A stretch of DNA of 64,000 nucleotides, from NCBI RefSeq assembly GCF_009914755.1, contig NC_060934.1; one strand, written 5' to 3'. The stretch's first letter is position 1; the number at the start of each line of letters is the position of its first letter. Positions 19,514-63,941 of this stretch are shown piece by piece. Position numbers and translations under genes: made by a program. The DNA comes from the human T2T-CHM13v2.0 reference genome, Homo sapiens. Under the pieces are notes generated by a model, which did no database searches, was not told where the DNA came from, and saw only the letters and a list, made by a program, of their open reading frames with translations.

Positions 19514-19749
19514 GAAATCTCCTTTCCCTCCAGCAGGAAACCAGTGTAGTTATGTTGTTTGTACTTGCCAGGATACACTTCCATTTCATATTTGCAAGTA
19601 CACATAAAGGTATCCTTCATCAGCAGCACAGTGCTTCCTTTCCTCTGAATCTGCCATCAGCTCAGGCAGATTTCTAAGCAGCAAATCAGCCTTTGCCAGA
19701 ACACTGCAGGACACCAGTGCAGCGCCCAGCCTGCGACCATGAGGTAAAG
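19514..19749 (+). promoter_or_regulatory. IFIT-type distal promoter and first exon (candidate alternative IFIT2 exon 1)
   Basis: CATAAAGGTATCCTTCA aligns with the IFIT2/IFIT3 TATA segments. GCAGATTTCTAAGCAGCAAATCAGCC aligns with the IFIT3 5' UTR. It ends CTGCGACCATGAG|GTAAAG versus IFIT2 CTGCAACCATGAG|GTAAAT. Confidence 0.75.
19739..19743 (+). CDS. IFIT2: Coding ATGAG of the putative distal first exon; splicing to 41830 would give identical IFIT2 protein
   Basis: Kozak ACCATG, the same 5-nt coding micro-exon and the same phase-2 GT donor as the proximal exon. The splice is inferred, not observed. Confidence 0.55.
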
Positions 19750-20571
19750 GATTTTTTCTTGCATTTATCCCTTGAAATTATGTTGTGTGCCTTTGAAAAC
19801 CTCAAGGTAGATTTTCTTAGGTGCTGGATTTGGGCATCTGCTTAAATATTTAACATATCTTAGAGAATACTTGTTTCTTGTTAATTCAGGCATTTTAAAA
19901 TCTGTGGCGCTTCCAGACTCATATCAACATTCCCTGATGGAAGCCTTTAGCAATCCTAACCAGGAAGTGGCCAGAGCCTGGAGCCAGAGACGAACGTCCC
20001 TCATAGGAGGGGTTGCTGGAGGAGGAGGGGCAAATCTATTTCATTCTGTCCTTGCAGGCACATTTTCATCAGTTAATGATGCAAACCAGGCTGAAACGTT
20101 CTTAACAAGCATGTGTGTTTCTGTTTTTCATTTGAAAGTCAGGAGCATGAGGCTATATTCATCATAGAGGCAGGGTTTCTCTGTGTCAGAGCTCAGCATT
20201 GGCAGCTCTAGCAAAGGACAGGCTGCATTTAGCTGGTTCTTTTCTAAGGAGCCACAGTCAGGCACTAAACCAGCATCTACACCTCTGAGGCCCCTAAAAG
20301 CCTCCAGTGAAGCTGGGCTTGATCAGACCTCAAAAAGATCTCCCTTTGCATTTTGCTCTTAGTTCTCAGTGATCTTTAAAAAATAATAATAATAAAAAGA
20401 TTAGAATCATGAAAGATTTTTCTCAGGATATGAATACTATAGGCACACTAAAGAAACTTTGGAAAAATGCCAGCAAGTATAAGCGAAAAAAAATCATACT
20501 GCCCCTTATATCACCCACTGAAATTAAAATATTTAAACATTATGCTTCTGTGTACACCTGTATACGCTATA

Positions 20572-20970
20572 TGTCAGGCCTCTGAGCCCAAGCTAAGCCA
20601 TCATATACCCTGTGACCTGCACGTATAAATCCGGATGACCTGAAGTAACTGAAGAATCACAAAAGAAGTGAAAATGGCCTGTCCCTGCCTTAACTGATGA
20701 CATTACCTTGTGAAATTCCTTCTCCCAGCTCTTCCTGGCTCAAAAGCTCCCCCACTGAGCACCTTGTGCCCCCCACCCCTGCCAGCCAGAGAACATCCGC
20801 CTTTGACTGTAATTTTCCACTATCTACCCAAATCTTATAAAAACAGCCCATCCCATCTCCCTTCACTGACTCTCTTTTTGGACTCAGCTCGCCTGCACCC
20901 AGGTGATTAAAAAGCTTTATTGCTCACACAAAGCCTGTTTGGTGGTCTCTTCACATGGACGCGAGTGACA
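20572..20970 (+). repeat. 5' LTR7 (LTR7B-like)
   Basis: TGTCAGGCCTCTGAGCCC start, TATAAAA box, ATTAAA at 20906-20911. About 92% identical to the 3' LTR by hand count. Confidence 0.93.
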
Positions 20971-20972
20971 TT

Positions 20973-20990
20973 TGGTGCCGTGACTCGGAT
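20973..20990 (+). other. Primer-binding site for tRNA-His
   Basis: TGGTGCCGTGACTCGGAT is the 18-nt complement of the tRNA-His(GTG) 3' end including CCA. Confidence 0.95.
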
Positions 20991-21499
20991 CGGGGAACCT
21001 CCCTTGGGAGATCAATCCCCTGTCCTCCTGCTCTTTGTTCCAAGAGAAAGATCCACCTACGACCTCTGCTCCTCAGACCAACCAGCCCAAGGAACATCTC
21101 ACCAATTTTAAATCGGGTAAGTGGCCTGTCTTTACTCTCTTCTCCAATCTCTCTCACTATCCCTCAACCTCTTTCTCCTTTCAATCTCGGCACCACACTT
21201 CAATCTTTCCCTTCTCTTAATTTCAATTCCTTTCCTTTTTTGGTAGAGATACGGGAGATGTGTTTTATCTGTGGACTCAAAACTCCAGTGCTGGTCACAG
21301 ATTCGGGAAGACAGTCTTCCCTTGGTGTTTAATCACTGCAGAGATGCCTGCCTGATTATTCACCCACATTTCATTGGTGTCTGATCACCGTGGGGATGCC
21401 TGCCTTGGTCATTCACCCACATTCCCTTAGTGGCAAGGCAATTGTGGGGACACCTGCTTTGGCTGCTCACCCACATTTGCAGCCCAGGGCTGCTCACCC

Positions 21500-21740
21500 A
21501 ACCCCTTCTCTCCATGTCTCTACCCTCTCTTTTCTCTCCACTTTCCTGGGGGGCAAGGACCCCCTACCCCTTCTCCACTTTCCTGGGGGGCAAGCACCCC
21601 CCACTCCTTCTCTCTGTGTCTCTACCCTCTCTTTTCTCTCCACTTCCCTGGGGGACAAACACCCCACCCCTTCCCCATGTTCCTGGGGTGCAAGAACCCC
21701 CCACCCCTTCTCTCTGTGTCTCTACCCTCTCTTTTCTCTG
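21500..21740. repeat. Pyrimidine-rich alternating tandem repeats in the HERV-H leader
   Basis: TGTCTCTACCCTCTCTTTTCTCT occurs three times and CCTGGGG(G)...CAA four times. Confidence 0.8.
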
Positions 21741-22695
21741 GACTTGCCTCCTTCACTATAGGCAAACTTCCACCCTCCATTCCTCCTTCTTCTCCCTTAG
21801 CCTGTGTTCTCAAGAACTTAAAACCTCTTCAACTCACACCCGACTTAAAACCCAAATGCCTTATTTTCTTCTGCAATGCCACTTAACCCCAATACAAACT
21901 CGACAGTGGTTCCAAAGAGCCATAAAATGGCACTTTTGATTTCTCCATCCTACAACACCTAGATAATTTTTGTCGAAAAATGGGCAAATGGTCTGAGGTG
22001 CCTGACGTCCAGGCATTCTTTTACACATCGGTCCCTCGTCCCTCCCTAATCTCTGTTCCCAATGCAACTCATCCCAAATCTTCCTTCTTTCCCTCCTGCC
22101 TGTCCCCTCAGTTCCAACCCCAAGTGTCACTAAGTCTTTCCAATCTTCCTTTTCTACGGACCCATCTGACCTCTCCCCTCCTCCCCAGGCTGCTCCTAGC
22201 CAGGCCGAGCCAGTTCCAATTCTCCCTTAGCCTCCGCTCCCCCACCCTATAATCCTTCTATCACCTCCCCTCCTCACACCCAGTCCAGCTTCCAGTTTCG
22301 TTCTGCGACTAGCCCTCCCGGACCTGCCCAGCAATTTCCTCTTAAAAAGGTGGCTGGAGCTAAAGGCATAGTCAAGGTTAATGCTCCTTTTTCTTTATCC
22401 AACCTCTCCCAAATCAGTTAGCGTTTAGGCTCTTTTTCATCAAATATAAAAACCCAGCCCAGTTCATGGCTTGTTTGGCATCAACCCTGAGATGCTTTAC
22501 AGCCCTAGACCCTGAAAGGTCAAAAGGCCGTCTTATTCTCAATATACGTTTTATTACCCAATCTGCTCCCAACATTAAATAAAACTCCAAAAATTAAATT
22601 CCGGCCCTCAAACCCCACAATAGGATTTAATTAACCTTGCCTTCAAGGTGTACAATAATAGAGTAGAGTCAGCCAAGTAACAATGTATTTCTGAG

Positions 22696-22911
22696 TTGCA
22701 ATTCCTTGCCTCCACTGTGAGAGAAACCCCAGCCACATCTCCAGCACACAAGAACTTCAAAATGCCTAAGCCGCAGCAGTCAAGCATTCCTAGAGGACCT
22801 TCTCCATCAGGATCTTGCTTCAAGTGCCAGAAATCTGGCCACTGGGCCAAGGAATGCCCACAGCCCGGGATTCCTCCTAAGCTGTGTCCCATCTGTGTGG
22901 GACCCCACTGA
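22696..22911 (+). pseudogene. HERV-H gag nucleocapsid fragment
   Basis: Zinc knuckle CFKCQKSGHWAKEC. Confidence 0.85.
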
Positions 22912-23079
22912 AAATCAGACTGTCCAGCTCACCTGGCAGCCACTCCCAGAGCCCCTGGAACTCTGGCCCAAGGCTCTCTGATTGACTTCTTCCAAGATCT
23001 TCTGGGCTTAGTGGCTGAAGACTGACACTGCCCGATCACCTGAGAAGCCTCCTGGACCATCACAGATGCTTTAGGTAAC

Positions 23080-25535
23080 TCTTACAGTAGAGGGTAAGTC
23101 CATTCCCTTCTTAATCAATACAGAGGCTACCCACTCTGCATTACCTTCTTTTCAAGGTCCTGTTTCCCTTGCCTCCATAACTGTTGTGGGTATTGACGGC
23201 CAGGCTTCTAAACCTCTTAAAACTCCCCAACTCTGATGCCAACTTGGACAACATTCTTTTATGCACCCTTTTTTAATTATCCCCACCTGCCCAGTTCCCT
23301 TATTAGGCTGAGACATTTTAACCAAATTATCTGCTTCCCTGACTATTCCTAAACTACAGCCACATCTCATTGCCACCCTTCTTCCCAACCCAAAGCCTCC
23401 TTCATGTCTTCCTTTCATATCCCCCCACCTTAACCCACAAGTATAAGATACCTCTACTCCCTCCTTGGTGACTGATCATGCACCCCTTACCATCCCATTA
23501 AAACCTAATCACCCTTACACCACTCAATGCCAATATCCCATCCCACAGCACGCTTTAAAAAGGATTAAAGCATGTTATCACTTGCCTGTTACAGCATGGC
23601 CTTTTAAAGCCTATAAACTCTCCTTACAATTCCCCCATTTTACCTCTCCAAAAACCAGACAGGTCTTACAGGTTAGTTCAGGATCCGCACCTTATCAACC
23701 AAATTGTTTTGCCTATCCACCCTGTAGTGCCCAACTCGTACACTCTTTTGTCCTCAATACCTCCCTCCACAACCTCTCCACAACCCAGTATTCTGTTCTG
23801 GATCTCAAACATGCTTTCTTTACTATTCCTTTGCACCCTTCATCCCAGCCTCTTTTCACTTTCACTTGGACTGACCCCGACACCCATCAGGCTCAGCAAA
23901 TTACCTGGGCTGTACTGCTGCAAGGCTTTGCGGACAGCCCCCATTACTTCAGTCAAGTCCAAATTTCTTCTTCATCTGTTACCTATCTTGGCATAATTCT
24001 CCATGAAAACACATGTGCTCTCCCTGCTGATCATGTCTGACTAATCTCCCAAACCCCAACTCCTTCTACAAAACAACTGCTTTCCTTCCTAGGCATGGTT
24101 AGGTATTTCCACCTTTGGATACCTAGTTTTACCATCCTGACTAAACCATTATGTAAACTGACAAAAGCAAACCTAGCTGACCCCATAGATCCTAAATCCT
24201 TTTGCCACTCCTCTTTCCATTCCTTAAAAACAGCCCTAGAAGCTGCCCCCATGCTAGCTCTCCCTAACTCATCCCAACCCTTTTCGTTACACACAGCGAA
24301 AGTACAGGGCTGTGCAGTCAAAATTCTTACACAAGAGCCAGGACTGCATCCTGTAGCCTTTCTGTCCAAACAACCTGACCTTATTGTTTTAGGCTGGCCC
24401 CCACCCCCATGACTGTATCTCTCTGATCTACCTGACATTCACTCCATTTCCCCATATTTCCTTCTTTCCTGTTCCTCATCCTGATCACACTTGGTTTATT
24501 GATGGCAGTTCCACCAGGCCTAATCTCCACTCACCAGCAAAGGCAGGCTATACTATAGTATCTTCCACACCTATCATTGAGGCTACCACTCTGCCCCCTC
24601 CATTATCTCTCAGCAAGCCAAACTCATTGCCTTAACTCGGGCCCTCACTCTTGCAAAAGTACCACACATCAATATTTATACTGACTCTAAATATGCCTTC
24701 CATATCCTGCACCACCATGCTGTTACATGGGCAAAAAGAGGTTTCCTCACTACGCAAGGGTCCTCCATCATTAATTCCTCTTTAATAAAAACTCTTCTCA
24801 AGGCTGCTTTACTTCCAAAGGAAGCTGGAGTCATTCACTGCAAGGGCCATCAAAAGGCATCAGATCCCATTGCTCAGGGCAATGCTTATGCTGATAAGGT
24901 AGCTAAAGAAGCAGCTAGCATTCCAACTTCTGTCCTTCACGGCCAGTTTTTCTCCTTCTCAATGGTCACTCCCACCTACTCTCCCACTGAAACTTCCACC
25001 TATCAATCTCTTCCCACACAAGGCAAATGGTTCTTGGACCAAGGAAAATATCTCCTTCCAGCCTCACGGGCCCATTCTATTCTATCGTCATTTCATAACC
25101 TCTTCCATGTAGGTTACAAGCCACTAGCCCACCTCTTAGAACCTCTCATTTCCTTTCCATCATGGAAATCTATCCTTAAGGAAATCACTTCTCAGTGTTC
25201 CATCTGCTATTCTACTGCTCCTCAGGGAATGTTCAGGCCCCCTCCCTTCCTTACACACTAAGCTCGGGGATTTGCCTCTTCCCAGGACTGGCAAATTGAC
25301 TTTACTCACATGCTTCAAGTCAGGAAACTAAAATCCCTTTTGGTCTGGGTAGACACTTTCACTGGATGGGTAGAGGCCTTTCCCACAGGGTCTGAAAAGG
25401 CCACCATGGTCATTTCTTCCCTTCTGTGAGACAAAATTCCTCTGTTTGGCCTTTCCACCTCTATACAGTCTAATAACGAACCGGCCTTTATTAGTCAAAT
25501 CACCCAAGCAGTTTCTCAGGCTCTTGGTATTCAGT
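23080..25535 (+). pseudogene. HERV-H pro/pol (RT, RNase H, integrase) fragments
   Basis: LDLKHAFFTIPL and QGFADSPHYF (RT), WFIDGSS (RNase H) and DWQIDFT (integrase). Broken by stops, frameshifts and deletions. Confidence 0.88.
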
Positions 25536-26348
25536 GGCGCCTGGTTTTACCTCAAACTGCCACCCTTAAGTCTCTGTTTGAACGGATAGAAGATCTTTGG
25601 TGACAAAGTATACTCTAATACTTTCACCCCGATGAAGTCCTATTCTTTACTTTTACACTTACTCTTATTCTCGTTCCCATTCTTAGGCCACCCTCTACCT
25701 CTCCCCAGCTATCTCCACCACACTATCAATCTCAGTCACTCTCTCCTAGCCATTTCTAATCCTTCTTTAACAAACAATTGCTGGCTTTGCATTTCTCTTT
25801 CCTACAAAATCGCTGAGGCCTTGACTTACTCACTGCTAAAAAAAAAGGGGGGGGGGGACTCTGTATATTTTCACATGAAGAGTGCTGTTTTTACCTAAAT
25901 CAATCTGGCCTGGTATATGACAACAATAAAAAAAACTCAAAGATAGAGCCTAAAAACTTGCCAACCAAGCAAGTAATTACACTAAACCCTCTTGGACCCC
26001 CTTGGACACTCTCTAATTAGATGTCCTGGGTCCTCCCAATTCTTAGTCCTTTATTATCTGTTTTTCTCCTCCTCTTATTTGGACCTTATGTCTTCCATTT
26101 AGTTTCTCAATTCATCCAAAACCGTATCCAGGCCATCACCAATCATCCTATACAACAAATGCTCCTTCTAACAACCCCACAGTATCACCCCTTACCACAA
26201 AATCTTTCTTCAGCTTAATCTCTCCCACTCTAGAAGCAGCCCTGAGAAACATCGCCCATTATCTCTCCATGCCACCCCCAAAATTTTTGCTGCCAACACT
26301 TCAATACTATTTTATGCTATTTTTCTTATTAATATAAGAAGACAGGAA

Positions 26349-26747
26349 TGTCAGGCCTCTGAGCCCAAGCTAAGCCAACATATCCCCTGTGACCTGCACG
26401 TATAAATCCAGATGGCCTGAAGTAACTGAAGAATCACAAAAAAAGTGAAAACGTCCTGTCCCTGCCTTAACTGATGACATTACCTTGTGAAATTCCTTTT
26501 CCTGGCTCATCCTAGCTCAAAAGCTCCCGCACTGAGCACCTGGTGACCCCCACCTCTGCCAGCCAGAGAACAACCCCCTTTGATGTAATTTTCCACTATC
26601 TACCCAAATCTTATAAAACGGCCCCGGCCCTATCTCCCTTCACTGACTCTCTTTTCAGACTCAGCCTGCCTGCACCCAGGTGATTAAAAAGCTTTATTGC
26701 TCACACAAAGCCTGTTTGGTGGTCTCTTCACGTGGAAAAGAGTGAAA
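26349..26747 (+). repeat. 3' LTR7 (LTR7B-like)
   Basis: Direct repeat of 20572-20970, with ATTAAA at 26683-26688. Confidence 0.93.
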
Positions 26748-27699
26748 CTATATAAAATAGATTTCTTTGGAAAATATTTCAAAGTTAAGGGTGTATGTTA
26801 CAGTTGGTTTCATCTTATCCTTTCACTTAACATTATATTGTGAGTGTTTTCTGATATTATTACAATTTTTCAATGACATGGGTATTGAGAGCTTCATAAT
26901 AATATTGCAAAATATGGATGTAGGATGTAGGATGACTTCTCGGTCTCCTTTCTTTGTTCTTTTTTTCATTTCCTTTCTTCCATCCTTCCTTCCTTTCCTC
27001 CTTCATTCCTTTTTTCCTTCCTTCTCTCCAATCCTTCCTCTTACTTCCTTCCTTTGTTCCTTCCCTCCATTCTCTTCTTCCTCATTTTTTCCCCTTCCTC
27101 CCTGCCTTCCAGATTCCTTCCTTTTTAGCTTAATTAAATGTATACATTCACATCATTTAAATAGTCAACGTGATCTACAAGGTAGGAGACATAGCAACCC
27201 CCTTCCCCATTCCACCCTATTTCCCAGTCTCCAGAGGTAACCACATATAACTCTTTTGGTGCCTATTTTGTGATTTGTTGCCACACCCTGAGATTCTTCC
27301 ATGCTGTCTTTTTTCAGTTTAAAGTATTTATTATAGTTAACCTACCACAATACATGATACCATGATACACATGAGTTATATAGTCTTAACTAGCCTTTTG
27401 ATTTTTTTTTCCTTTTAAGCATGAGACCACAAGGAGTCACATACTGACCTTTAGGCAGGACAGTGCTTTACTCAGAAATCCCTGACCATGAGCTGAGTGC
27501 AATGATTCCTTGACTGTGGGTTGGCTCCCCTGGGAAAGGTCCCATTATGTTCTATGTTTGGGAAGAAGTGTATACATGGTTATTTAGGGCCAGAGCAGGA
27601 TACTGTTGTGGAAACAACTCATGATCCTTCCAAATTAGTGTTTCCCCTTCATAATATGAAGTCGTCACCAGGAAGGGGGCTTCCTACTCTGCAGCTACA

Positions 27700-28020
27700 T
27701 GAACTAACCTTCACTTCTCCCCAGGTGGGCCATGAACTAGTGCTTCCTAATAGAATGTGAGTGAATGTGATGTATGTCATTTCCAAGTAAAGATGGTTAA
27801 GAATCAGGTGTACCCTCTTTACTCTCAATTTCCAGGCTCTAGGGGATGGTAGAGTCACAGGATGGAAGAACTCTGTGTCCTTGAATCATTGCATGGAAGA
27901 GAACTGGAAGTTGCCCAGGAACACCAGCCTTGGACAGTTATGTGAACAAGAAATAAACTTCTTTTACAGTGTCATTTATGTTTTTGAGCATCTTTGTTAC
28001 AGCGGCTAGGTGTATACTAA
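27700..28020 (+). mobile_element. Old MLT1 (MaLR) LTR
   Basis: AATAGAATGTGAGTGAATGTGATG...GAAATAAACTTC...TTTGTTACAGC. Confidence 0.6.
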
Positions 28021-28511
28021 TTCAGGGATTCTGTGATAGCAATATTTCTTCTTCTTTTGAGTAGGTTTCCAAAACTTGATTTTCCACAATTCTGAAATAT
28101 TTTGGTTCTGGGATAAACTTTTCTACTCTTTTGGCAGCACAAAGATCCCTTTGTACAGAGGCACTGATTTGTCTTCTTCTGGAGTAGCATCCCAGTTTCT
28201 CACTGTGGCCAACAAAGCGAATAAAAAGAAAAAAAGGATCTGAAATAGCAATCCAGCGGCAGCCACCAATACCTGATAATACTATAGTCAAAGCTCCACA
28301 TTAGAGAACAGACCACTTTCAGGTGAGTGGCCCCTGGCCCTAGAAGTAAGTGGTATTCAAAGATGGTAAATGGTATGGGTGGCAGTAGAAGGTAGTAATA
28401 ACTAACCCTTATTGGGCATTTACCATGTGCCAAGCACTGTTCTCAGAGCTTTATACATAGTAGTCCACTCAATCTCCACAAAACCCTATGTGGTAAATAC
28501 TAACATAATTC

Positions 28512-28797
28512 CTTTTTCTTTTTTAGAGACCTAGTCACGTTCTGTCACACAGGCTGGAGTACAATGGTGCAATCTTGGTTCACTGCAGCCTCAAACTCCT
28601 GGGCTAAAGCAATCCTCCTGGGTAGCTAGGAGGACAGGCTCATGCCACCATGCCTGGCTACTTTTTTTTTTTTTAATTGTAGAGATAGGGTCTTGCTATG
28701 TTGCCCAGACTTGTTTCAAACTCCTGGCCTCAAGCAATTCTCCTGCCTCTGCCCCTCAAAGTGCTGAGATTACAGACATGAGCCACTGTACCTGGGC
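28512..28797 (-). mobile_element. AluJ, antisense, inserted in a MIR
   Basis: T-rich start followed by reverse-complement Alu with CACTGCAGCCTCAAACTCCTGGGC. Confidence 0.88.
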
Positions 28798-28844
28798 ACA
28801 ATTCTCATTTTAAAAATGAAGAAATTGAGGCACAGAAAGGTTTC

Positions 28845-29204
28845 TAATATGGTTTGGCTTTGTGTCCCCACCCAAATCTCATCTCAAATTATAATCCCCA
28901 TAATCCTCATGTGTCAAGGGCAGGACCTGATGGGAGGATTGGATCATAGGGGTGGTTTCCCCCATATTATTCTCATGATAATGAGTGAGTTTTCATGAGA
29001 GCTGATGGTTTTATAAGCATCTGACATTTCCTCTGCTTACATTCACTCCCTCCTGCTGCCTTGTGAAGAAGGTGCCTTGCTTCCCCTTTGCCTTCTGCCA
29101 TGATTGCAAGTTTCCTGAGCCCTCCCCATGGAACTGTGATTCAGTTAAACCTCTTTCCCAGTCTCAGGTAGTATCTTTCTAGAGTATGAGAACAGACTAA
29201 CACA
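28845..29204 (+). mobile_element. THE1 (MaLR) solo LTR
   Basis: ATATGGTTTGGCTTTGTGTCCCCACCCAAATCTCATCT...GACTAACACA, with 5-bp TSD GTTTC. Confidence 0.88.
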
Positions 29205-29343
29205 GTTTCCATCTCTATTACTTAACAGCAGCAGTCAGATCCCGGCCCCCTTTTCTCCACCCATATGTAATTCCTCTTACGGTCTCCACTTACTCTTTTT
29301 TTTCCCCATGGACTTGTCCCATATTGTCTAATTTATTTATTAT

Positions 29344-29523
29344 TGTATTAGTCTACATTGGCTGCCATAATGAAAAATCACAGACTAGGTGGCTTAAGCA
29401 ACAGAAATCTATTTTCTCACAGTTCTAGATGCTAGAAGTCCAAGTTGGTTTCTGGTGAGACCTCTCTTCCTGACCTGGAGATGGCAGCCTTTTCTTTATC
29501 TTCACATGGCCTTTCCTCTGTGT

Positions 29524-29574
<51 letters not shown>

Positions 29575-29784
29575 TCTGAGGTCTCTTCTTTTTCTTCTTG
29601 TTTGTATGAAGACGTCAGTGTTACCAGATTAGGGGTTACCAGATTAGGGGCCCCACCCTTAAGACCTCATTTAACCTTAAATACCTCCTCACAGGCCCTA
29701 TCTCCAAACAAAGTTACGTTGAGGGTTAGGGCTTCAATGATGAATTTTGGGAAAGGAGTTGGGAACTCAATTCAGTCCAAAGCA
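29344..29784 (-). mobile_element. MLT1A-like MaLR LTR
   Basis: TGTATTAGTC...GGTGGCTTAAGCAACAGAAAT...TCTCACAGTTCTAG...AATTCAGTCCA. Confidence 0.75.
29529..29572. repeat. (GA)22 microsatellite
   Basis: Perfect GA run. Confidence 0.95.
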
Positions 29785-29789
29785 GTTGT

Positions 29790-29942
29790 TTATTGCCATC
29801 TCTTCCTGATAGAATATAAGCTCCATGAAGACAGAGATCTTTGTGTACTGATGTATCTTAAGAGCCTAGAATGGTGCCTGGCACATAGTAGATTCTCAGT
29901 AAGTATTGATTTGATGAACGAATGGTGAATGAATGAATGAAA
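29790..29942 (+). mobile_element. L2 3' end
   Basis: TAAGCTCCATGAAGACAGAGA...GTGCCTGGCACATAGTAG...TGAATGAATGAA. Confidence 0.75.
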
Positions 29943-30113
29943 CAAATACTCCTAGTGTTCTAACAGGGATAAGTGTACAAATTGTCCCAGCAGAAGTTTA
30001 TTTAGCATGGTCTTATTTCTGAATAGGACTATGGAAAGATAAAGTCATTTACCCGCATCAAGTTTCCACTCAAAGACTGCCCAACTGCAGTCTAAAAAAT
30101 TAATGCTGAAAAA

Positions 30114-30497
30114 TGTCTTAGTCCATTTTTTTCTGCTATAACAGAATACCACAGATGGGCAGATTGGGAGATTGGGTAATTTATAATGAACAGACATTTA
30201 TGGACACATGGTTCTGGAGGCTGGAAAGTCCAAGATCAAGGGGCCACATCTGGCCAGGGCCCTCTTACTGGGTCATCCCATGATGGAAGGGTAAATAGGG
30301 GGTGAGGGTGAGCAAGAGAAGGTTGAAGTCATCCTTTTATATGGAACTCCGTCCCTCAATAATGGCATTAATCTATTCAAGAGGACAATGCCCCCATAAC
30401 CCAAATACCTCCCATTAGGTCCCACCTCCCAACACTGCCACATTGGGGATCAAGTTTCCAACACATGAACTTTGGAGGACATATTCAAACCACAGCA
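30114..30497 (-). mobile_element. MST (MaLR) solo LTR
   Basis: TGTCTTAGTCCAT...GCTATAACAGAATACCACAGA...CATATTCAAACCACAGCA. Confidence 0.8.
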
Positions 30498-30549
30498 AGA
30501 AGAAATGGTGTTTAATTAATTTTTGAAAAAAGAATAAGAATGGGGAGCT

Positions 30550-30957
30550 GGCCAAGTGCTGTGGCTTATGCCTGTAATCCCAGCACTTTGGGATGCTGAA
30601 GCAGGAAGATCAGTTGATCCCAGGAGTTTGAGAGCAGCCTGGGAAACATAGTGAGACCCTATCTCTACAAGAAATAAAAAATTAGCTGGGTGTAGTGGCA
30701 CTCATCTGTGATCCCAGCTACTCAGGAGACTGAGGTGGGAAGATCACTTGAGCCTGGGAGGGAGGTCAAGGCGACAGTGAGCTCTGATTGCGCCACTGCA
30801 CTCCAGCCTGGGTGACAGAGCAAGACTCTGTCTGAAAAGAAAAAAGAAAAAAAGGAAGAAAGGAAAGGAAATGAAATGAAAGGAAAGGAAAGGAAAGGAA
30901 AGGAAAGGAAAGGAAAGGAAAGGAAAGGAAAGGAAAGGAAAGGAATGGAAAGGAAAA
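30550..30957 (+). mobile_element. AluJ with tail expanded into a (GGAAA)n microsatellite
   Basis: Alu body to ~30835, pentamer array ~30855-30955, and TSD AAGAATGGGGAGCT on both sides. Confidence 0.9.
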
Positions 30958-31656
30958 AAGAATGGGGAGCTATTTTATTAACTATATCAATATTTTTGAA
31001 GTTCATGTGGAAGACCATTTTAAACGTGTATTTGTGAATGAGTACAGAAGGGAATGTCATATAGGTGGGAACACATTGTTTTCAAATTACAGCCCATTGT
31101 GGGGATCAAGAGAACCCACTGGGCTACCTAAGTATTCCTCTAACAAGTGCGAATACTATTGAACAGTCACCAGCTCTTCTAGGTGGACAAAACTTCAGTT
31201 AAAAATAGACTCAAAACAAAAAAGAGGGTCAAATTTTTTAAAAAATCTCAAGGAAAAAGCATAGAGTTTCATTTTATAGAAGTAAAAGTATTTTTGCTTA
31301 CATTCAATATATTATTTGGTTCTCAGACTTTAGCATCCATTATAATTATCTGGAAGGCTTATCAACACCTAGATTTCTGGGTCCCACACTGGAATTTCTG
31401 ATTCTATCAGTCTAGAATGGGGCCTAAGAATTTGCACTTCCAGGTGATGCTGATATTGCTGGTGGCAAGTAGCAATATGAGAATTATTGCATTATACCAT
31501 CTGTAGTTGATGTAACCCATTCCAGGAACAGGAAGCAAATCTATATTCTATATAAATGAAATCTATTGTTCTAGGAAATATGAACAGGGCCTATATTCCA
31601 GGAAAAAGACACATATATATTTGTAGCAACGAGGTTAGGCAGAACTCTTTCTAATA

Positions 31657-31880
31657 AGTTTCATTTTCTCAAAATAGAAATAACACCAGGAGAAAGTTGG
31701 TTTTCCTTTTCAGTTGCTATTTTGCAATCACATTGCATGCATAGTCTCACACTAACCCAGCTACTAAATCAGCTGATGCATACCTGCTGTGGTAACATTA
31801 TATACAGGCACTAGCCATACAAATTTCTGAAGTGTAAATCAGTATCTCAACCATTTCAAAGCACAGTGACCATGGCAAAA
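31657..31880 (+). promoter_or_regulatory. Relic IFIT-type promoter/first exon with intact ISRE but no splice donor
   Basis: ISRE AGTTTCATTTTC (31657-31668), second TTTCCTTTTC (~31702-31711), ATCAGCTGATGC (31768-31779, identical in the IFIT3 promoter), TTATATA (31798-31804), TTTCTGAAG..AAATCAG, then ACCATG-GCAAAA at 31869-31880. Confidence 0.65.
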
Positions 31881-32073
31881 CCTTTCTCTATGCTTCTCCC
31901 CAACCAGTACCTTTATTCACAAGATTTTAAAATTCCTATCCAATAGTTTTCTTGAATACTGAGTTCAAAAAATAAATCAAACCAAACCCACAGCATTTCC
32001 ACTTTCCTATTTCAGCATTTCTTAAAAACCTAACATACATTTCTGTAAGTACCTAATAGAACTTGTAAATAGA

Positions 32074-32385
32074 AGCCAGGCACTGTGGCTCATGCCTGTA
32101 ATCCTAGCACTTTGGGAGTGCTTCCCAAGGCGGGCAGATCCCTTAAGGCCAGAAGTTCATGACCAGACTGGCCAACATGGCAATACCCCATCTCTACTAA
32201 AAATACAAAAATCAGCTGGGCCTGGTAGCTGGGCCAAGTAGCCAGCTACTTGGGAGGGTGAGGCACGAGAACTGCTTGAACCCGGTAGGCAGAGGTTGCA
32301 GAGAGCCAAGATCTCACCACTGTAGTCTAGCTTTGGCAACAGAGCGAGACTGTCTCAAAAAAAAAAAAAAAAAAAAAGAAGAAGA
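32074..32385 (+). mobile_element. AluS
   Basis: Alu dimer, poly(A), TSD AGAACTTGTAAAYAGAA. Confidence 0.9.
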
Positions 32386-32824
32386 AGAACTTGTAAACAG
32401 AAAAGGAACTTGAAACTCTTGCGTAAGACACAAAAGTAAGGGTTTCCAACTGGGACAGGCTTAGCTGTGCATCCTAATCAAAGGGTGGAGACTTTTTAGG
32501 AAGGATAGTTTCTTTTTCCTCCCTGCCCTAGGCAGAAAAAAAATTATGGTAAATAACTTTTCCCAAGACTGAATAACCTACCTTAACAACCTCAGTTTTG
32601 CTGGAGAATGTGTTCTATCTGTGCTTTGTGTAATTTTCTGACCTCAATCTTTGAGGTACTATTATTTTCTTTTGGGCCTATATACATGATTACCCCCTTT
32701 GTGACTAAGGGTATGAATAAGGAAAATACATTTCTTCTATCATTACAAAACACTATGGCTGTACATTGTGATTTGGGGATGTCAAATACCAGGGCAACAA
32801 GCAGGGATTTAAAATATGGTGGGG

Positions 32825-36429
<3,605 letters not shown>

Positions 36430-36496
36430 GGGGGAAAATATTGTGGGGCTTGGGGAAGCCAAGAACATAAGGAGATGTTAGGAATTGTTTGGCTTA

Positions 36497-36870
<374 letters not shown>

Positions 36871-37423
36871 TTAATAATTATAATAGAAACTAGCATTTAC
36901 TTATTACTGCCAGGCATTATTCTAAGGACATTTCACGTATTCTCTCATTTCATCCTCCCAACACCACAATAAACCAGTAGTTGTATTATTCCCAATTTAC
37001 AAAACCGAAGCAGAGACATTCAATAATTTTCCCCAGAGTTTCATAGCATAAAGGTGGAAGCTGATTTCAAATCCAGATAGACAGACATCACTGCCCATGC
37101 TTCTAATCATGTATTCATTTAGTCAACAACTACTTTTGGAATGCTTGCCATACCATGCAATGTGCAGGTTGTTTTGCAGGGACTGGAGATTCAGCAATGA
37201 TTCAGACTAAAATCCCCTGCCCTGTCGAGGCTAAATAACTGCTCCTTACAGTGGCCTGTGGATCATATTGGTATAAGGCAGAGCAAAGATGGGTTAATAT
37301 GGTAATCACAAGGCAGGGAGCTTTGTAAATGTGTCCTCCTAGGAGTTGTGCTCCCTTGATGCCATCAGTACATTCCACAAAGAGGAAGTTCTTCTAACTC
37401 ACTACGCAGCTGGGCTTGGCTCT

Positions 37424-37745
37424 TACTCAAGAGCATTTTGGGGTGAAAATATCTAAGTTTACCAGCCCTTGTGCAAATCTGAGATGAAGGACTACATTAA
37501 AAGTAAAATTCACCTTAGCAGGAAGTGGGGTTTGCTATTCTGTGTATATCTTTAACAGTATCTGCTGAAAAGAACCCTTTTGTTAAATAATTGTATTACA
37601 AGTCCCCAACTTAATCTTTTCGAATATGAAATAAGAGAGGGACAGTGCACAAGAGCAATGTCCCCAGACCCATCTTTAAGTGAAGCACCAGGCCGATGAA
37701 ACATCCCTCTCTGCTGCCTTCTTTCTCTGATCACAACTCAGCTCC
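37424..37745 (+). repeat. Inverted repeat, left arm (322 bp), upstream of the IFIT2 promoter
   Basis: Reverse complement of 38237-38562. Hand alignment gives 12 substitutions and 2 indels (3 bp and 1 bp). Confidence 0.97.
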
Positions 37746-37762
37746 GGAGGAAAAAGAGTCCT

Positions 37763-37787
37763 CTAAAGTATAATAAAAAGAAAAAAA
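37763..37787 (+). mobile_element. Ultra-short L1 3'-tail insertion (25 bp)
   Basis: CTAAAGTATAATAAAAAGAAAAAAA matches the L1PA terminus TAAAGTATAATAA(A)n and lies between perfect 13-bp repeats GAAAAAGAGTCCT (37750-37762 and 37788-37800). Confidence 0.75.
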
Positions 37788-37803
37788 GAAAAAGAGTCCT
37801 GCC

Positions 37804-37830
37804 AATTTCACTTTCTAGTTTCACTTTCCC
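37804..37830 (+). promoter_or_regulatory. IFIT2: Tandem ISREs of the IFIT2/ISG54 promoter
   Basis: AATTTCACTTTCT followed by AGTTTCACTTTCCC, the classical ISG54 ISRE. Confidence 0.95.
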
Positions 37831-37835
37831 TTTTG

Positions 37836-37891
37836 TAACGTCAGCTGAAGGGAAACAAACAAAAAGGAACCAGAGGCCACTTGTATATATA
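37836..37891 (+). promoter_or_regulatory. IFIT2: IFIT2 core promoter: CRE-like TAACGTCA, E-box TCAGCTGA, TATA box
   Basis: TAACGTCA at 37836-37843, TCAGCTGA at 37841-37848 and TATATATA at 37884-37891. TSS expected ~37915. Confidence 0.75.
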
Positions 37892-37991
37892 GGTCTCTTC
37901 AGCATTTATTGGTGGCAGAAGAGGAAGATTTCTGAAGAGTGCAGCTGCCTGAACCGAGCCCTGCCGAACAGCTGAGAATTGCACTGCAACC

Positions 37992-37996
37992 ATGAG
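37992..37996 (+). CDS. IFIT2: IFIT2 coding exon 1 (ATG AG)
   Basis: ACCATGAG|GTAAAT donor. Joining to 41830 gives MSENNKNSLESSLRQLKCHFTW, the IFIT family two-exon structure. Confidence 0.95.
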
Positions 37997-38236
37997 GTAA
38001 ATATTTTCCCTTCGTATTCGGTAGTGCTGTTGAGTCATCTTGTCCAATGCAAATCCTGAGAAGCTATGTTCCCAAAGAGGGCCAGCTCCATTTTAGTGTT
38101 TGTTTATAGCCTTACTATGCCTCTACCTCTGTTGGTTGTAAATCTGTCTTACCAATGGTGGTTTGTTCCCTCCTGAACAATTTTCTGCTTCACACTGGCA
38201 AGCTTCCTAAATTCATCTCCAGAACTGCACGCCTGG

Positions 38237-38562
38237 GGAGTTGAGTTGCAATCAGAGAAAGAAGGCAGCAGAGAGGGATGATGTTTCATCGGCCTGGTGC
38301 TTCACTTAAAGATGGGTCTGGGGGCATTGCTCTTGTGCACTGACCCTGTCTTATTTCATATTTGAAAGGATTAAGTTGGGGACTTGTAATACAATTATTT
38401 AACAAAAGGGTTCTTTTCAGCAGATACTGTTAAAGATATACACAGAATAGCAAACCCCACTTCCTGCAAAGGTGAATTTTACTTTTAATGTAGTTCTTCA
38501 TCTCAGATTTGCACAAGGGCTGGTAAACTTAAATATTTTCACCCCAAAATGCCTCCTGAGTA
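38237..38562 (-). repeat. Inverted repeat, right arm (326 bp), in the IFIT2 intron
   Basis: Reverse complement of 37424-37745. Confidence 0.97.
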
Positions 38563-39086
38563 TGAATTAGAGATGGAGTGCTTGGAGAAAATAGTTCTGT
38601 TCTCACCTCTAACATTCCCTTCTATCCCCAAAACATGAGACTGCCCTGGAGAGGAAGTGTTAGCTCATTGAATAGGAAGGGAAATATTTTCTCCAGTTTG
38701 AAGGTGGGGTGGCCGGACCTGGTTGCCTAACCCTCATCCTGGGAGCTCTGGAATCCCGTGTTACCAACCCCTGTGCTTACTTCCTATGAGACACCTTGCC
38801 TTCTGTCTGTGAGGTTCCTGATTTCTCTTCTTGAAACGATATTATTTCCTGCTAGTCTAAATGTTCTGCCTGATTTCAAAAAAAAAAAAAAAAGATTTGA
38901 GATATTTACAGATTTCTTTTTTTTGTAGTCACCCAGAATCTATAGAACCCTTTTCTTATTTCTTAGAATTTTAGCATGGTCTTATCTTAGAATTTTTCCC
39001 ATTACAATACAGACCCATCTGTCCTTTCTTTCCTTAATTCTTTATCTATTGTGACTTTCACTGGGCATTGCCCTTGTGCCCTAAGA

Positions 39087-39260
39087 CAGTGGTTCTCAAA
39101 ATTGAGCATGCATAAAAATTGCCTGGACAGCTTATTAAGGACAGAGTCCTAGGGTTGACTCCCCAGAGATTCTCATTAAGTGGGTCTGGGTTAGAGTCTG
39201 AGGATGTGTGTTTCTAAAAGGCTCCTCAGTGATTCTGAGACTGCGGTGGTAGCATTAGTT
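39087..39260. mobile_element. MER5A-like hAT-Charlie MITE
   Basis: CAGTGGTTCTCAAA...CCCCAGAGATTCT...GGTCTGGG...TTTCTAA. Confidence 0.7.
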
Positions 39261-41829
39261 CTGAGCCTGGTTGATAATGTCACTGTGGCTTTCATCCAGA
39301 TAAGAGGCAAAGGAAGAAATTGTTGTTGTTGTGTATACAACTGGAACTTCTATAGGAATCGGGAGAATAGGTCCTCACAAGCCAGAGCCCAGGAAGCAAG
39401 TGTCTGGCATCAGCTTCTCTAACTTACCAGTGGAAATAAAAACCCAAAATCAAGCAGTGAAGTTGGATGCCTTTTAAATGGCTGCTCAAAGGGCTTTTAC
39501 CTAAGTGTGTATATTAAATATCTCTATCCTGCAAATGCACAATAGACTTTATGTTTTATATGGTGGAGATAACCTCAATTCTATTTACTCTCTCTGTTTC
39601 TTTTGTAAAATGAGAAAGGAGCTAAGGAGTTTATGTGTTAAGGGAATGAGCTCCCAAACTCAACTGGAAGTTGGAAATAGAATTGAGAGGGAGCAAGGAA
39701 GCTATAGTGAGTCTTCAGGTGTTAGGATGCGTGCTGCACATGCTTGGGGTCTGAGAGTGGTCATATTCTGTAGGACTCACCATATTCTGTAATGAATGCA
39801 GTAGAGAGTGTGACTGAGATGCACATGGAGAAAACACAGGGTCTGAGCCCTCCAAGCTCCCCAGTGTCCTGTTCTGATCCTCCTGGGGTCACTACAGTCC
39901 TACCCATGGTCCTGTGAAGCACTCTAGTAACTTTAAATCAGTTCCTGCTCACCTCTGTTTCTTGGAACAAATGGAGACTTAACTATCCCAGGCAGAATAA
40001 ACAAACAAACAAACAAAAATAGGATGGAAAATAGGCAGGAGTTTATAGGAAGGACCCGCCTTCCATTCAAAGCTCCAAATAGGTCTTAGCAAAGAGCCAG
40101 GTTGTCTAAGTCCCTTGATGTAACTAACCCCAGGCGCGGGAGCCCCGGAGAGTGCTTGGCTTGGTATCAGGCATCCTAATGGCAGATGCATTCCCGTTGA
40201 AAAGCTCATGTCCAAACAGATCTGTTTTTATTCTTAGTGAGGTTACAGGAAGATTCCCAATCAAAATGGGAGTGGGAAGCAGTGGTATAAAAAGTGGGAG
40301 AGAGAGGGGCAGTTAGAAAGAGGGGTCACATAATCTTCTATCTAGACATATGTTTCATAAGTGATCCTGCCACATTGCATGACATTCCAGATATCTATTG
40401 GTTGTATAAGAAGCCATACTATTTAGAAATACAGCTCCTGATACAAGGGTTGCTGTATAGATACCACGAAAAAAAAATTTAAATAAGAAAAGGCAACATT
40501 ACAGAGACTCCAATACACAGACAGTGTTGAGAAATAATTTGGGGCATAGAATACTATTTATCTCCAAAGTAATTCGAAATACAGGCTTTTGCTCATTTGT
40601 CTGTTCTCTGGGTTTTTTCGGGTTTTTTTTGTTGTTGTTTTGTTTTGTTTTTTGGTTTGGTTGATTTTGGTTTATTTATTTATTTTGAGGACCAACACTA
40701 AAGGGAATGGAAAATCTTTCCAGGAGAGTCATAAGGGTACCCTAAAGAAAAAAGAGCTCTTTCTATAAGAAAAGGAGCTAGTGGCCTTGTGAGCCTTCCC
40801 TGTAGCTGCACTTCTTGCCCCTTATTATAAAAGCAAAACCCAGAAGAGAAAAATAAAATTTCAAAAAAAAAATTAAAACAATAAAGTACAAAATTATTAA
40901 TAGAGCAACTCAATGAGATGTGTTAAGAACAGAAATCACCAGTTTAAGAAATAGAGGTATGGGGGGGAGGGGAGGAAAAAAAATTACATTTTATTCCAAA
41001 ATAAATGTTTAAGACATTGCTAACATAAATAATACTTGAAATTAAATGAGAGAATAATACAAAAGCAGATAAAATGAGTAAAAATTAAGAATGGTTGAAA
41101 ATAAGATTCAAATGGTTAAAATGGAAAAATTCACAGAAAAAAATGAGAATGTAGCATGTTAAAGTAATAAACCAATACAAAATAAAACCAATCTGATAAA
41201 AGCTCAGAAAGTTTGAATAGACAAAATAAATGAAGGATATATTAAAAGCTGAAATAGACAGAAAATCGAAAGTGATAAAGATTTCTTTAAAGGCAAATGA
41301 AGGAGAACTAAGGAATTAAGAATATCAAAGATAAAATGAAGCTGCATTTCGGAGGGATGAGAAATTAAAATCACCATGGCAAAACATTAAAAGAATAAAA
41401 AATTATAAAGCTGAAATTTTCAAAGTACAAAAGTAAAGCTAGGGAAGAATGAAGAACAGAAACAGCAATGAAAAAGACTTACTTCTTTAAAACTACATAA
41501 ATAAAACCAAGCCTCCACAGAGACCCTCGAAAGCAGAGAGGGCAGAGCTGTTTAACAAAAACTGTCTTATTCATGAAAACCTAGCCACAGACTCAGAGAA
41601 CAACCCACTGCCCTCGCCCTAATTCTTCTGCTGCCCACAGTCCCTAAACTCCTGCTACCACATGCAGGAATTAACAATAAGGAAAAACATATTATAGAAA
41701 GAAAAGAAGGGGAGTTTCTTTGATTTGTGTTAACAGCCTTTAGGAGGAGGAGCATTTTATTTGCCATGCTCCCATTTCTTGACATATAAATCTGTGTCTC
41801 AAAGTCCATCTTTGTGTTTTTCCCTACAG

Positions 41830-43243
41830 TGAGAACAATAAGAATTCCTTGGAGAGCAGCCTACGGCAACTAAAATGCCATTTCACCTGGAACTTGATGG
41901 AGGGAGAAAACTCCTTGGATGATTTTGAAGACAAAGTATTTTACCGGACTGAGTTTCAGAATCGTGAATTCAAAGCCACAATGTGCAACCTACTGGCCTA
42001 TCTAAAGCACCTCAAAGGGCAAAACGAGGCAGCCCTGGAATGCTTACGTAAAGCTGAAGCGTTAATCCAGCAAGAGCATGCTGACCAGGCAGAAATCAGA
42101 AGTCTGGTCACCTGGGGAAACTATGCCTGGGTCTACTATCACATGGGCCGACTCTCAGACGTTCAGATTTATGTAGACAAGGTGAGACATGTCTGTGAGA
42201 AGTTTTCCAGTCCCTATAGAATTGAGAGTCCAGAGCTTGACTGTGAGGAAGGGTGGACACGGTTAAAGTGTGGAGGAAACCAAAATGAAAGAGCGAAGGT
42301 GTGCTTTGAGAAGGCTCTGGAAAAGAAGCCAAAGAACCCAGAATTCACCTCTGGACTGGCAATAGCAAGCTACCGTCTGGACAACTGGCCACCATCTCAG
42401 AACGCCATTGACCCTCTGAGGCAAGCCATTCGGCTGAATCCTGACAACCAGTACCTTAAAGTCCTCCTGGCTCTGAAGCTTCATAAGATGCGTGAAGAAG
42501 GTGAAGAGGAAGGTGAAGGAGAGAAGTTAGTTGAAGAAGCCTTGGAGAAAGCCCCAGGTGTAACAGATGTACTTCGCAGTGCAGCCAAGTTTTATCGAAG
42601 AAAAGATGAGCCAGACAAAGCGATTGAACTGCTTAAAAAGGCTTTAGAATACATACCAAACAATGCCTACCTGCATTGCCAAATTGGGTGCTGCTATAGG
42701 GCAAAAGTCTTCCAAGTAATGAATCTAAGAGAGAATGGAATGTATGGGAAAAGAAAGTTACTGGAACTAATAGGACACGCTGTGGCTCATCTGAAGAAAG
42801 CTGATGAGGCCAATGATAATCTCTTCCGTGTCTGTTCCATTCTTGCCAGCCTCCATGCTCTAGCAGATCAGTATGAAGAAGCAGAGTATTACTTCCAAAA
42901 GGAATTCAGTAAAGAGCTTACTCCTGTAGCGAAACAACTGCTCCATCTGCGGTATGGCAACTTTCAGCTGTACCAAATGAAGTGTGAAGACAAGGCCATC
43001 CACCACTTTATAGAGGGTGTAAAAATAAACCAGAAATCAAGGGAGAAAGAAAAGATGAAAGACAAACTGCAAAAAATTGCCAAAATGCGACTTTCTAAAA
43101 ATGGAGCAGATTCTGAGGCTTTGCATGTCTTGGCATTCCTTCAGGAGCTGAATGAAAAAATGCAACAAGCAGATGAAGACTCTGAGAGGGGTTTGGAGTC
43201 TGGAAGCCTCATCCCTTCAGCATCAAGCTGGAATGGGGAATGA
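41830..43243 (+). CDS. IFIT2: IFIT2 coding exon 2: interferon-induced protein with tetratricopeptide repeats 2 (ISG54), 472 aa in total
   Basis: Acceptor TTTTTCCCTACAG|T. Intact ORF with the IFIT signature LKCHFTW, TPR helices, EEGEEEGEGE and C-terminus SASSWNGE*. Confidence 0.99.
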
Positions 43244-63842: not shown

Positions 63843-63941
63843 GTTCCTTCAGTATTTACTTGAGGCAGACAGGAAGACTTCTGAAGAACAAATCAGCCTG
63901 GTCACCAGCTTTTCGGAACAGCAGAGACACAGAGGGCAGTC

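What the first reader, a model, noticed from the sequence alone, without database searches (positions are those of the whole stretch)
19514..43243. System view: an array of three paralogous first-exon cassettes feeding one constant IFIT2 coding exon
Seen: cassettes at 19.5-19.75, 31.65-31.88 and 37.8-38.0 kb, and IFIT3 at 63.7-63.95 kb, share a TATA / TT(T)CT(G)AAG / CATG layout, and three share TCAGCTGA between ISRE and TATA. Established: IFIT exon 1 encodes only ATG+AG, so any such exon is in frame with any IFIT exon 2. Inference: first exons act as interchangeable promoter modules that are duplicated and lost independently of coding exons, loosely like variable-first-exon clusters such as UGT1A, but changing regulation rather than protein. 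Cross-gene splicing (e.g. 37996 to IFIT3 exon 2) is also frame-compatible. The distal cassette lies outside the inverted repeat, so it could still supply IFIT2 if the proximal one were flipped.
Basis: inference. Interest (0 to 1): 0.7.

Follow-up and report, generated by a model that had tools for sequence, protein, structure and literature searches.

The report
Leftover first exons around IFIT genes
Two decayed copies of the IFIT starter exon lie upstream of human IFIT2: one has lost its splice site and likely survives only as an interferon enhancer, and the other keeps its splice site but is predicted to splice mainly into an old retroviral insert, so this is likely not three working first exons for one gene.

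Summary
This is the human IFIT locus. The 19.7 kb cassette is a real IFIT exon-1 paralog (held-out profile E 4e-11). It keeps ATGAG|GT but has no ISRE or TATA. The 31.8 kb cassette is a weak, probable paralog (E 3e-3, missed by the annotated-only profile). It keeps an exact ISRE but has no splice donor, so it cannot be an IFIT first exon. RefSeq's predicted model splices the 19.7 donor into a younger HERV-H-like provirus, not into IFIT2. One published junction table (cut when stored) shows only the canonical IFIT2 junction. 'Three cassettes feeding one exon' is therefore not supported; a minor 19.7→IFIT2 isoform remains open. The broader idea holds: 194 kb of the cluster has 11 exon-1-like modules and 6 coding exons, and IFIT3's two first exons are known. 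Two more donorless copies precede IFIT1B and IFIT1. The IFIT1B one coincides with a published Mediator/NS1-bound 'enhancer'. Best reading: old tandem promoter–exon-1 duplicates that became second promoters, enhancers or relics. New member of a known kind; interest 0.35.

The parts
19543..19762 (+). c19.7: old IFIT promoter/exon-1 paralog. Exon block about 19659-19743 preserved; ATG 19739 is the only ATG in 19560-19743; donor ATGAG|GTAAAG at 19743/19744; ISREs and TATA decayed
   Evidence: nhmmer E 1.8e-7 to 4e-11; exon block 44.9 bits held out, promoter block undetected; motif scan; ATG count; the donor is the end of exon 1 of RefSeq model LOC124902477 (annotation given with the finding)
20572..26747 (+). 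HERV-H-like provirus on the same strand as IFIT2. It carries the RefSeq-model acceptors 20888 and 20934, donors 21116 and 23074, and ATTAAA signals at 20906 and 26683; a likely splice/poly(A) trap for c19.7 RNA
   Evidence: LTR pair 367 identities, 30 mismatches; 5-bp target-site duplication at 20567-20571 and 26748-26752; RVT_1, RT_RNaseH_2 and RNase_H hits in 3 of 4 natural frames scanned. The family label rests on recalled LTR7/tRNA-His primer-site features; no repeat library was on hand
31640..31897 (+). c31.8: probable, heavily decayed promoter/exon-1 paralog. Exact ISRE 31657-31669, TCAGCTGA 31769, TATATA 31799, TTTCTGAAG 31824, ATG 31872 with no splice donor; candidate enhancer relic
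   Evidence: E 3.1e-3 (9-member profile without it) and 3.7e-4 (4-member set chosen after the fact), decoy best 2.9 and 7; z 4-7 to IFIT3a and c110.4; motifs; stop at codon 25
37421..37745 (-). Left arm of an inverted repeat: a derived, inverted copy of IFIT2 intron-1 sequence placed upstream of the promoter
   Evidence: 312 identities, 13 mismatches, 4 gaps with the right arm; longest perfect run 99 bp; two matches in the genome search
37804..37996 (+). IFIT2 working promoter and exon 1: ISREs 37804 and 37817, TATA 37884, ATG 37992, donor 37996/37997
   Evidence: RefSeq NM_001547.5 (annotation given); motifs; canonical junction with up to 1975 reads in one table
38237..38565 (+). Right arm of the inverted repeat: ancestral intron-1 sequence
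   Evidence: 38247-38480 matches IFIT3 intron 64234-64471 at 64% in the same orientation and offset
41830..43243 (+). IFIT2 coding exon 2, phase-2 acceptor; the only IFIT coding sequence in the window
   Evidence: 472-aa ORF with exon 1; tblastn and nhmmer find no other IFIT coding remnant in the window (next-best E 0.47 and 2.9)
63707..63946 (+). IFIT3 upstream promoter and exon 1 (three ISREs, TATA 63837, ATG 63942); closest match to both c19.7 and c31.8 among the window's cassettes
   Evidence: RefSeq NM_001549.6

Best explanation
The 19.7 and 31.8 kb stretches are decayed copies of the IFIT promoter-plus-first-exon module, likely left by old tandem duplications of that module: IFIT2 runs from its own exon at 37.9 kb, the donorless 31.8 kb copy likely acts at most as an interferon enhancer, and RNA from the ISRE-less 19.7 kb copy is predicted to splice mainly into the provirus 830 bp downstream. 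Because exon 1 codes only ATG+AG, a copy of promoter, exon 1 and the start of intron 1 is a complete in-frame module once made (shown: phase). Such copies arose several times (shown: 11 modules against 6 coding exons; inferred: early in placental evolution, from 40-60% identity). They met three fates. (1) A second working first exon: IFIT3, shown in print. (2) Donor lost, ISRE-like sites kept, enhancer role: the 110.4 kb copy is a published Mediator/NS1 peak; the role is inferred for 31.8 and 126.6. (3) ISRE and TATA lost, ATG and donor kept: 19.7 kb, a likely weak interferon-independent start. Its RNA would give normal IFIT2 if it crossed 22,086 nt to 41830, but it first meets the proviral acceptors and poly(A) signals. 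A low level of 19.7→IFIT2 splicing is compatible with this reading.
For: Cluster census: exon-2 copies are IFIT2, 3, 6P, 1B, 1 and 5. Exon-1-like modules are those six genes' own, a second IFIT3 exon (68.5 kb), 19.7, 31.8, 110.4 and 126.6 kb. Homology runs into the start of intron 1 (IFIT3a-IFIT3b z 10.6; c19.7-c126.6 z 6.2; c31.8-c93.2 z 5.4). No coding remnant follows the orphans, although the IFIT6P remnant is found easily (E 3e-53). Three orphans lack the donor. The 'IFIT D' ChIP amplicon of PMC8609347 maps exactly to L006:6233-6354, inside c110.4; the paper calls such peaks enhancers and lists D among the Mediator peaks. IFIT3 promoters act as enhancers on IFIT2 (PMC8602369 passages). RefSeq model exon 15228-19743 joins 20888. 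The IFIT2 acceptor appears only in the canonical junction in the stored junction table.
Against: c19.7 keeps ACCATGAGGTAA exactly, has no upstream ATG in about 180 nt and scores 44.9 bits held out against 52-88 for the training exons. That looks like selection on an IFIT2-coding use, not pure decay. Horse, dog and mouse IFIT2 are reported with three exons (PMC3688568; PMC3355090), hinting at a conserved upstream start. From memory only, untested: Ensembl/GENCODE starts IFIT2 at hg38 chr10:89,283,694, about window 19,560, which would mean an annotated 19.7→IFIT2 isoform. The junction table is cut, covers one study and lists only called events. No activity data were seen for c31.8, and its paralogy is modest. 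The tree resolves only two pairs. No other mammal could be searched.
Confidence: 0.62

Rival explanations
1. c19.7 is a real, maintained alternative first exon of IFIT2 (two, not three, cassettes), giving interferon-independent expression of the identical protein in some tissue.
For: Exact ATG/donor retention with good Kozak context and a clean leader. Same phase as exon 2. IFIT3 precedent. Three-exon IFIT2 in horse, dog and mouse. Recalled, untested Ensembl gene start near 19,560.
Against: No ISRE or TATA. The RefSeq model diverts the donor into the provirus. No such junction in the stored table (0 hits for its hg19 position). The 22-kb intron holds a sense provirus and 29 AATAAA plus 19 ATTAAA. 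In mouse the coding region lies in exons 2 and 3, so the upstream exon there is non-coding, unlike c19.7.
Confidence: 0.22
2. The orphans are the 5' ends of whole IFIT genes whose coding exons were later deleted.
For: IFIT clusters show frequent gene birth and loss (PMC4887208 passages). c19.7 is not sister to IFIT2's exon 1 (support low). c110.4 and c126.6 are each other's closest relatives (bootstrap 100), so at least one orphan was copied with its neighbouring gene.
Against: No exon-2 trace between 19.7 and 41.8 kb, or between c110.4 and IFIT1B's exon 1, or c126.6 and IFIT1's (one isolated 120-bp nucleotide hit at 105.3 kb lies upstream of c110.4). c126.6 and c110.4 lie only 1.9 and 3.6 kb before working exon 1s. 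IFIT3's two exon 1s show that exon-1-only duplication happens.
Confidence: 0.12
3. One reading: three interchangeable working first exons, UGT1A-like choice, cross-gene splicing, and backup after promoter inversion.
For: Tandem order and frame compatibility; a 95% inverted repeat does bracket the IFIT2 promoter.
Against: c31.8 has no donor. No cross-gene junction appears in the IFIT rows shown from the stored table, and the chr13 retrocopy is cognate (one case). The repeat's longest perfect run is 99 bp, and a search for an IFIT2 inversion returned 0 papers.
Confidence: 0.04

Closest known systems
IFIT3 dual promoters/first exons (P1, P2)
   Same: Paralogous ATG+AG first exons in tandem before one coding exon; two junctions to one acceptor, 1580 vs 91 reads in one sample (PMC8260223 supplement rows); both tested by deletion (PMC8602369 passages).
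   Different: Both IFIT3 copies keep ISRE and donor. Upstream of IFIT2, one copy lacks the donor and the other lacks ISRE/TATA.
Epromoters and promoter-derived enhancers in the IFIT cluster
   Same: IFIT promoters act as enhancers on neighbours; a donorless exon-1 paralog (c110.4) coincides with a published Mediator/NS1-bound enhancer.
   Different: In the passages read, those papers do not note that the enhancer is a fossil first exon. No activity data were seen for c31.8 or c126.6. Promoter-to-enhancer repurposing in mammals is known in general (recalled, no call).
Variable-first-exon clusters (UGT1A, clustered protocadherins; from established knowledge)
   Same: Tandem paralogous first exons in front of a shared exon, with some pseudo-exons.
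   Different: IFIT exon 1 codes no variable protein, only one IFIT2 exon 1 is shown to be used, and no promoter-choice mechanism is evident.
Host-exon capture by a sense-strand endogenous retrovirus (HERV-H chimeric transcripts; recalled. An ERVK-7 case was seen only as a search listing, PMC12159678)
   Same: An upstream cellular start splices into an acceptor inside a provirus (RefSeq model LOC124902477).
   Different: Here the upstream exon is a stranded IFIT first exon; the model is predicted, not curated.

Membership tests
Variable-first-exon cluster (UGT1A type) | Tandem paralogous first exons upstream of a shared constant exon | tested here: met
   c19.7 strongly, c31.8 weakly, homologous to IFIT exon 1; a single exon 2 in the window
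Variable-first-exon cluster (UGT1A type) | Each counted exon has an in-phase splice donor | tested here: not met
   2 of 3 have ATGAG|GT; c31.8 has none
Variable-first-exon cluster (UGT1A type) | Several first exons are spliced to the constant exon in vivo | tested here: inconclusive
   Only the canonical IFIT2 junction in one cut table; the RefSeq model sends c19.7 to the provirus; no RNA data could be searched directly
Variable-first-exon cluster (UGT1A type) | Variable exons encode different protein domains | tested here: not met
   Exon 1 gives ATG+AG only (PMC3688568 passage)
IFIT first exon/promoter: c19.7 | Sequence homology to established IFIT exon 1s | tested here: met
   E 4.3e-11 held out, no decoy hit at E<=10
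IFIT first exon/promoter: c19.7 | ATG+AG followed by a GT donor | tested here: met
   19739-19745
IFIT first exon/promoter: c19.7 | Two or three ISREs within 200 bp upstream of a TATA box | tested here: not met
   No ISRE within 2 mismatches and no TATAWAD. IFIT1B, a real gene, also lacks ISREs
IFIT first exon/promoter: c31.8 | Sequence homology to established IFIT exon 1s | tested here: inconclusive
   Missed by the established-only profiles; E 3e-3 with nine others; z 4-7 pairwise
IFIT first exon/promoter: c31.8 | ATG+AG followed by a GT donor | tested here: not met
   ATG is followed by GCAAAACC
IFIT first exon/promoter: c31.8 | ISRE upstream of a TATA-like box | tested here: met
   Exact ISRE at 31657 (1 of 6 exact matches in the window), a 2-mismatch site at 31699, TATATA at 31799
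Interferon-responsive enhancer (c31.8) | Induced factor binding and effect on IFIT2 expression | not testable with these tools
   No ChIP, ATAC or reporter data for this site; peak A of PMC8609347 has no coordinates in the text seen
HERV-H provirus (20572-26747) | Paired LTRs, target-site duplication, pol domains | tested here: met
HERV-H provirus (20572-26747) | LTR7 family and tRNA-His primer site | not testable with these tools
   No repeat library; label recalled. A locus named HERVH_10q23.31a is listed upstream of CH25H (PMC11925782 passage), which fits but gives no coordinates

The most novel reading that the evidence does not exclude
The IFIT cluster built its regulatory landscape by copying first exons: donorless fossils at 31.8, 110.4 and 126.6 kb are working interferon enhancers, and the ISRE-less 19.7 kb exon is a conserved interferon-independent start for normal IFIT2 whose output was throttled in primates when a retrovirus inserted behind it and captured its splice donor.
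Probability: 0.18. Interest if true: 0.62.

Novelty: new member of a known kind. Interest (0 to 1): 0.35.

Why it matters
IFIT genes are core antiviral genes with studied enhancers, yet the ten searches run here found no paper describing these orphan first-exon copies. Recognising them gives specific testable elements: three candidate ISRE-type enhancers, one already matching a published Mediator/NS1 peak, and one candidate interferon-independent IFIT2 start. It also offers a clean example of promoters turning into enhancers by losing a splice donor. It does not amount to a new kind of system: tandem first exons are known for IFIT3, and the protein does not vary.

Tried and rejected
Looked for exon-2 remnants behind the orphans by tblastn and nhmmer: none in the window. 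Genome-wide DNA searches with the IFIT3 and 19.7 cassettes returned only themselves; that tool is too insensitive for 50-60% paralogs, so this says nothing on rarity. Weak profile hits at 115.5 kb (Alu-containing), 93.8/94.0 kb and 97.3 kb were dropped as exon-1 candidates after reading them; the IFIT6P exon 1 is at 93.1-93.25 kb. An alternative donor for c31.8 at 32044 was rejected because of an in-frame stop. A tree of 11 modules resolved only c110.4+c126.6 (100) and c93.2+IFIT1B (98), so no distal/proximal subfamily or order of events is claimed. The chr13 retrocopy was tested as a fossil of cross-gene splicing: cognate IFIT1 exon 1 plus exon 2. A tiled nhmmer flank scan timed out and was replaced by blastn. 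No tRNA genes. Folding the inverted repeat gave the expected long stem and no further information. Searches for Ensembl transcript ids, the LOC names and the recalled hg38 start gave 0 papers. Three IFIT reviews/papers were not held. The supplement search of PMC13392291 had 0 hits.


Full report
Setting. The window is human chr10 (G000:C10:90148001-90212000), holding IFIT2 and the first exon of IFIT3. I fetched the surrounding cluster, window coordinates -20,000 to 174,000 (194 kb in all). Places over 64000 below are in that extended numbering.

Checking the cassettes. The four stretches align over the exon part. A profile from IFIT2 and IFIT3 alone finds the 19.7 kb cassette at E 3.1e-9 and the 31.8 kb cassette only at E 2.9. 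Against IFIT3, c19.7 scores z 7-8 and c31.8 z about 4. In both cases 0 of 680 window tiles score as high, but for c31.8 the margin is one point (204 vs 203). c31.8 has no similarity to IFIT2 (z 0.6-1.5). A profile of six established exon 1s gives c19.7 E 4.3e-11 and misses c31.8. A nine-member profile without c31.8 finds it at E 3.1e-3, against a best reversed-sequence decoy of 2.9; a four-member set that I chose afterwards gives 3.7e-4. In another run a decoy reached E 0.073. So c19.7 is certain and c31.8 probable.

Neither orphan is complete. c19.7 keeps ATGAG|GTAAAG and has no other ATG in 19560-19743. It has no ISRE within two mismatches and no TATA. Its exon block scores 44.9 bits held out (training exons 52-88), while its promoter block is not detected. 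c31.8 is the reverse: an exact ISRE at 31657 and a TATA-like box, but GCAAAACC after the ATG. The nearest donor-like site lies behind a stop at codon 25. It cannot serve as an IFIT-type first exon.

Where the 19.7 donor goes. 830 bp downstream begins a sense-strand provirus, 20572-26747. It has LTRs with 367 identities and 30 mismatches, a 5-bp target-site duplication and pol domains in 3 of 4 natural frames scanned. The HERV-H label is recalled. LTR divergence of 7.6% suggests roughly 15-35 million years on recalled rates, far younger than the cassette. The RefSeq predicted lncRNA LOC124902477, given with the finding, ends an exon exactly at 19743 and splices to 20888 or 20934 inside the 5' LTR. 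Reaching IFIT2 needs a 22,086-nt intron. In the human junction table of PMC8260223 (supplement file 4, cut when stored; I saw matching rows only) the IFIT2 acceptor occurs in one row, the canonical intron. The hg19 position of the 19.7 donor has 0 hits in that file or in all 16 held files; two further files were too large to read. The same table does list IFIT3's alternative first exon. This is weak negative evidence from one study. Against it, I recall, without any call, that Ensembl starts IFIT2 near window 19,560; searches for those ids and that coordinate found no paper. PMC3688568 (passages and section 6) reports three-exon IFIT2 in horse, dog and mouse. PMC3355090 (passages) places the mouse coding region in exons 2 and 3. 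A minor or ancestral distal start is therefore plausible but unshown.

Cluster census. tblastn finds 6 coding-exon copies: IFIT2, IFIT3, IFIT6P, IFIT1B, IFIT1 and IFIT5 (the genome search adds only chr13). Profiles find 11 exon-1-like modules: c19.7, c31.8, IFIT2, IFIT3 at 63.9 and 68.5 kb, 93.2 kb (before IFIT6P, E 1e-3, donor kept), 110.4 kb (E 6e-5, no donor), IFIT1B, 126.6 kb (E 4e-7, no donor), IFIT1 and IFIT5. Homology extends into the start of intron 1 for several pairs, so the copied unit is promoter, exon 1 and a few hundred bases of intron. Aligned identities are 35-69%, and only c110.4+c126.6 and c93.2+IFIT1B are supported pairs. The first pair means that at least one orphan travelled with its gene, in line with the IFIT1/IFIT1B duplication and conversion described in PMC4887208 (passages). 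All five intact acceptors share one phase, so the frame argument is right. The only fossil mRNA, the chr13 retrocopy, joins IFIT1 exon 1 to IFIT1 exon 2.

Function of donorless copies. PMC8602369 (passages and supplement rows) shows that both IFIT3 promoters have enhancer activity and are needed for timely IFIT2 induction. In PMC8609347 (passages and section 9; figure not visible) RSV NS1 binds three enhancers near IFIT2 and IFIT1B, and peaks B-D coincide with Mediator. Its 'IFIT D' primers map exactly to L006:6233-6354, inside c110.4. 'IFIT B' maps to 45432-45551, unrelated to the cassettes; peak A has no coordinates. One fossil exon 1 is thus an occupied regulatory site. The same role for c31.8 and c126.6 is inference from their ISREs.

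The inverted repeat. Arms 37421-37745 and 38237-38565 are 95% identical, with a longest perfect run of 99 bp. The right arm is ancestral intron, matching the IFIT3 intron, so the left arm is a derived inverted copy.

Comparison and verdict. The arrangement works like the known IFIT3 double promoter and like promoter-derived enhancers. It fails two defining tests of a UGT1A-type cluster (donors, variable protein). Ten full-text searches found no description of these orphan exons. Subscription papers, three IFIT papers not held, closed bioRxiv supplements (one long-read interferon preprint, two passages read) and genome-browser annotation were out of reach and may already cover c19.7. Best explanation 0.62: relic tandem modules with split fates. 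Novelty: new member of a known kind. Interest 0.35.

Noticed in passing
L006:6090-6398 (window-extended 110.1-110.4 kb): Donorless IFIT exon-1 paralog 3.6 kb upstream of IFIT1B exon 1; contains the published 'IFIT D' NS1/Mediator ChIP amplicon.
   Followed up: yes
L008:2386-2621 (126.4-126.6 kb): Donorless exon-1 paralog 1.9 kb upstream of IFIT1 exon 1, with a 1-mismatch ISRE; sister of the 110.4 kb copy.
   Followed up: partly
L004:9121-9258 (93.1-93.25 kb): Decayed exon 1 of pseudogene IFIT6P, still ATGAG|GT, closest to IFIT1B exon 1 (bootstrap 98).
   Followed up: partly
window 63765-63850 and L001/L002 at window-extended 64160-64250: IFIT3's promoter core (E-box to TATA) has an old inverted copy in its own intron 1 (63 of 84 aligned bases, z 10.5). 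With IFIT2's repeat, two IFIT first exons are bracketed by independent inverted duplications; unexplained.
   Followed up: partly
window 37421-37771: The antisense lncRNA LOC105378419 starts at 37771 and runs through the left repeat arm, so both divergent transcripts from the IFIT2 promoter carry the same 325-nt sequence in the same sense. The arm sits where IFIT3 has its third, distal ISRE, which IFIT2 lacks.
   Followed up: no
L002:1634-2046 (window-extended 65634-66046, minus strand): A solo LTR 85% identical to the provirus LTRs lies in the IFIT3 intron between its two first exons.
   Followed up: no
window 56073-57241 and window-extended 101165-102329: A 1.17-kb pair at 96% identity in inverted orientation flanks IFIT3 and IFIT6P, within repeat-masked sequence; a possible substrate for a 45-kb inversion, not examined.
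   Followed up: no
L026:1324-2906 (G000:C13): Processed IFIT1 retrocopy with cognate exon 1 fused to exon 2, 85% identical to IFIT1.
   Followed up: yes
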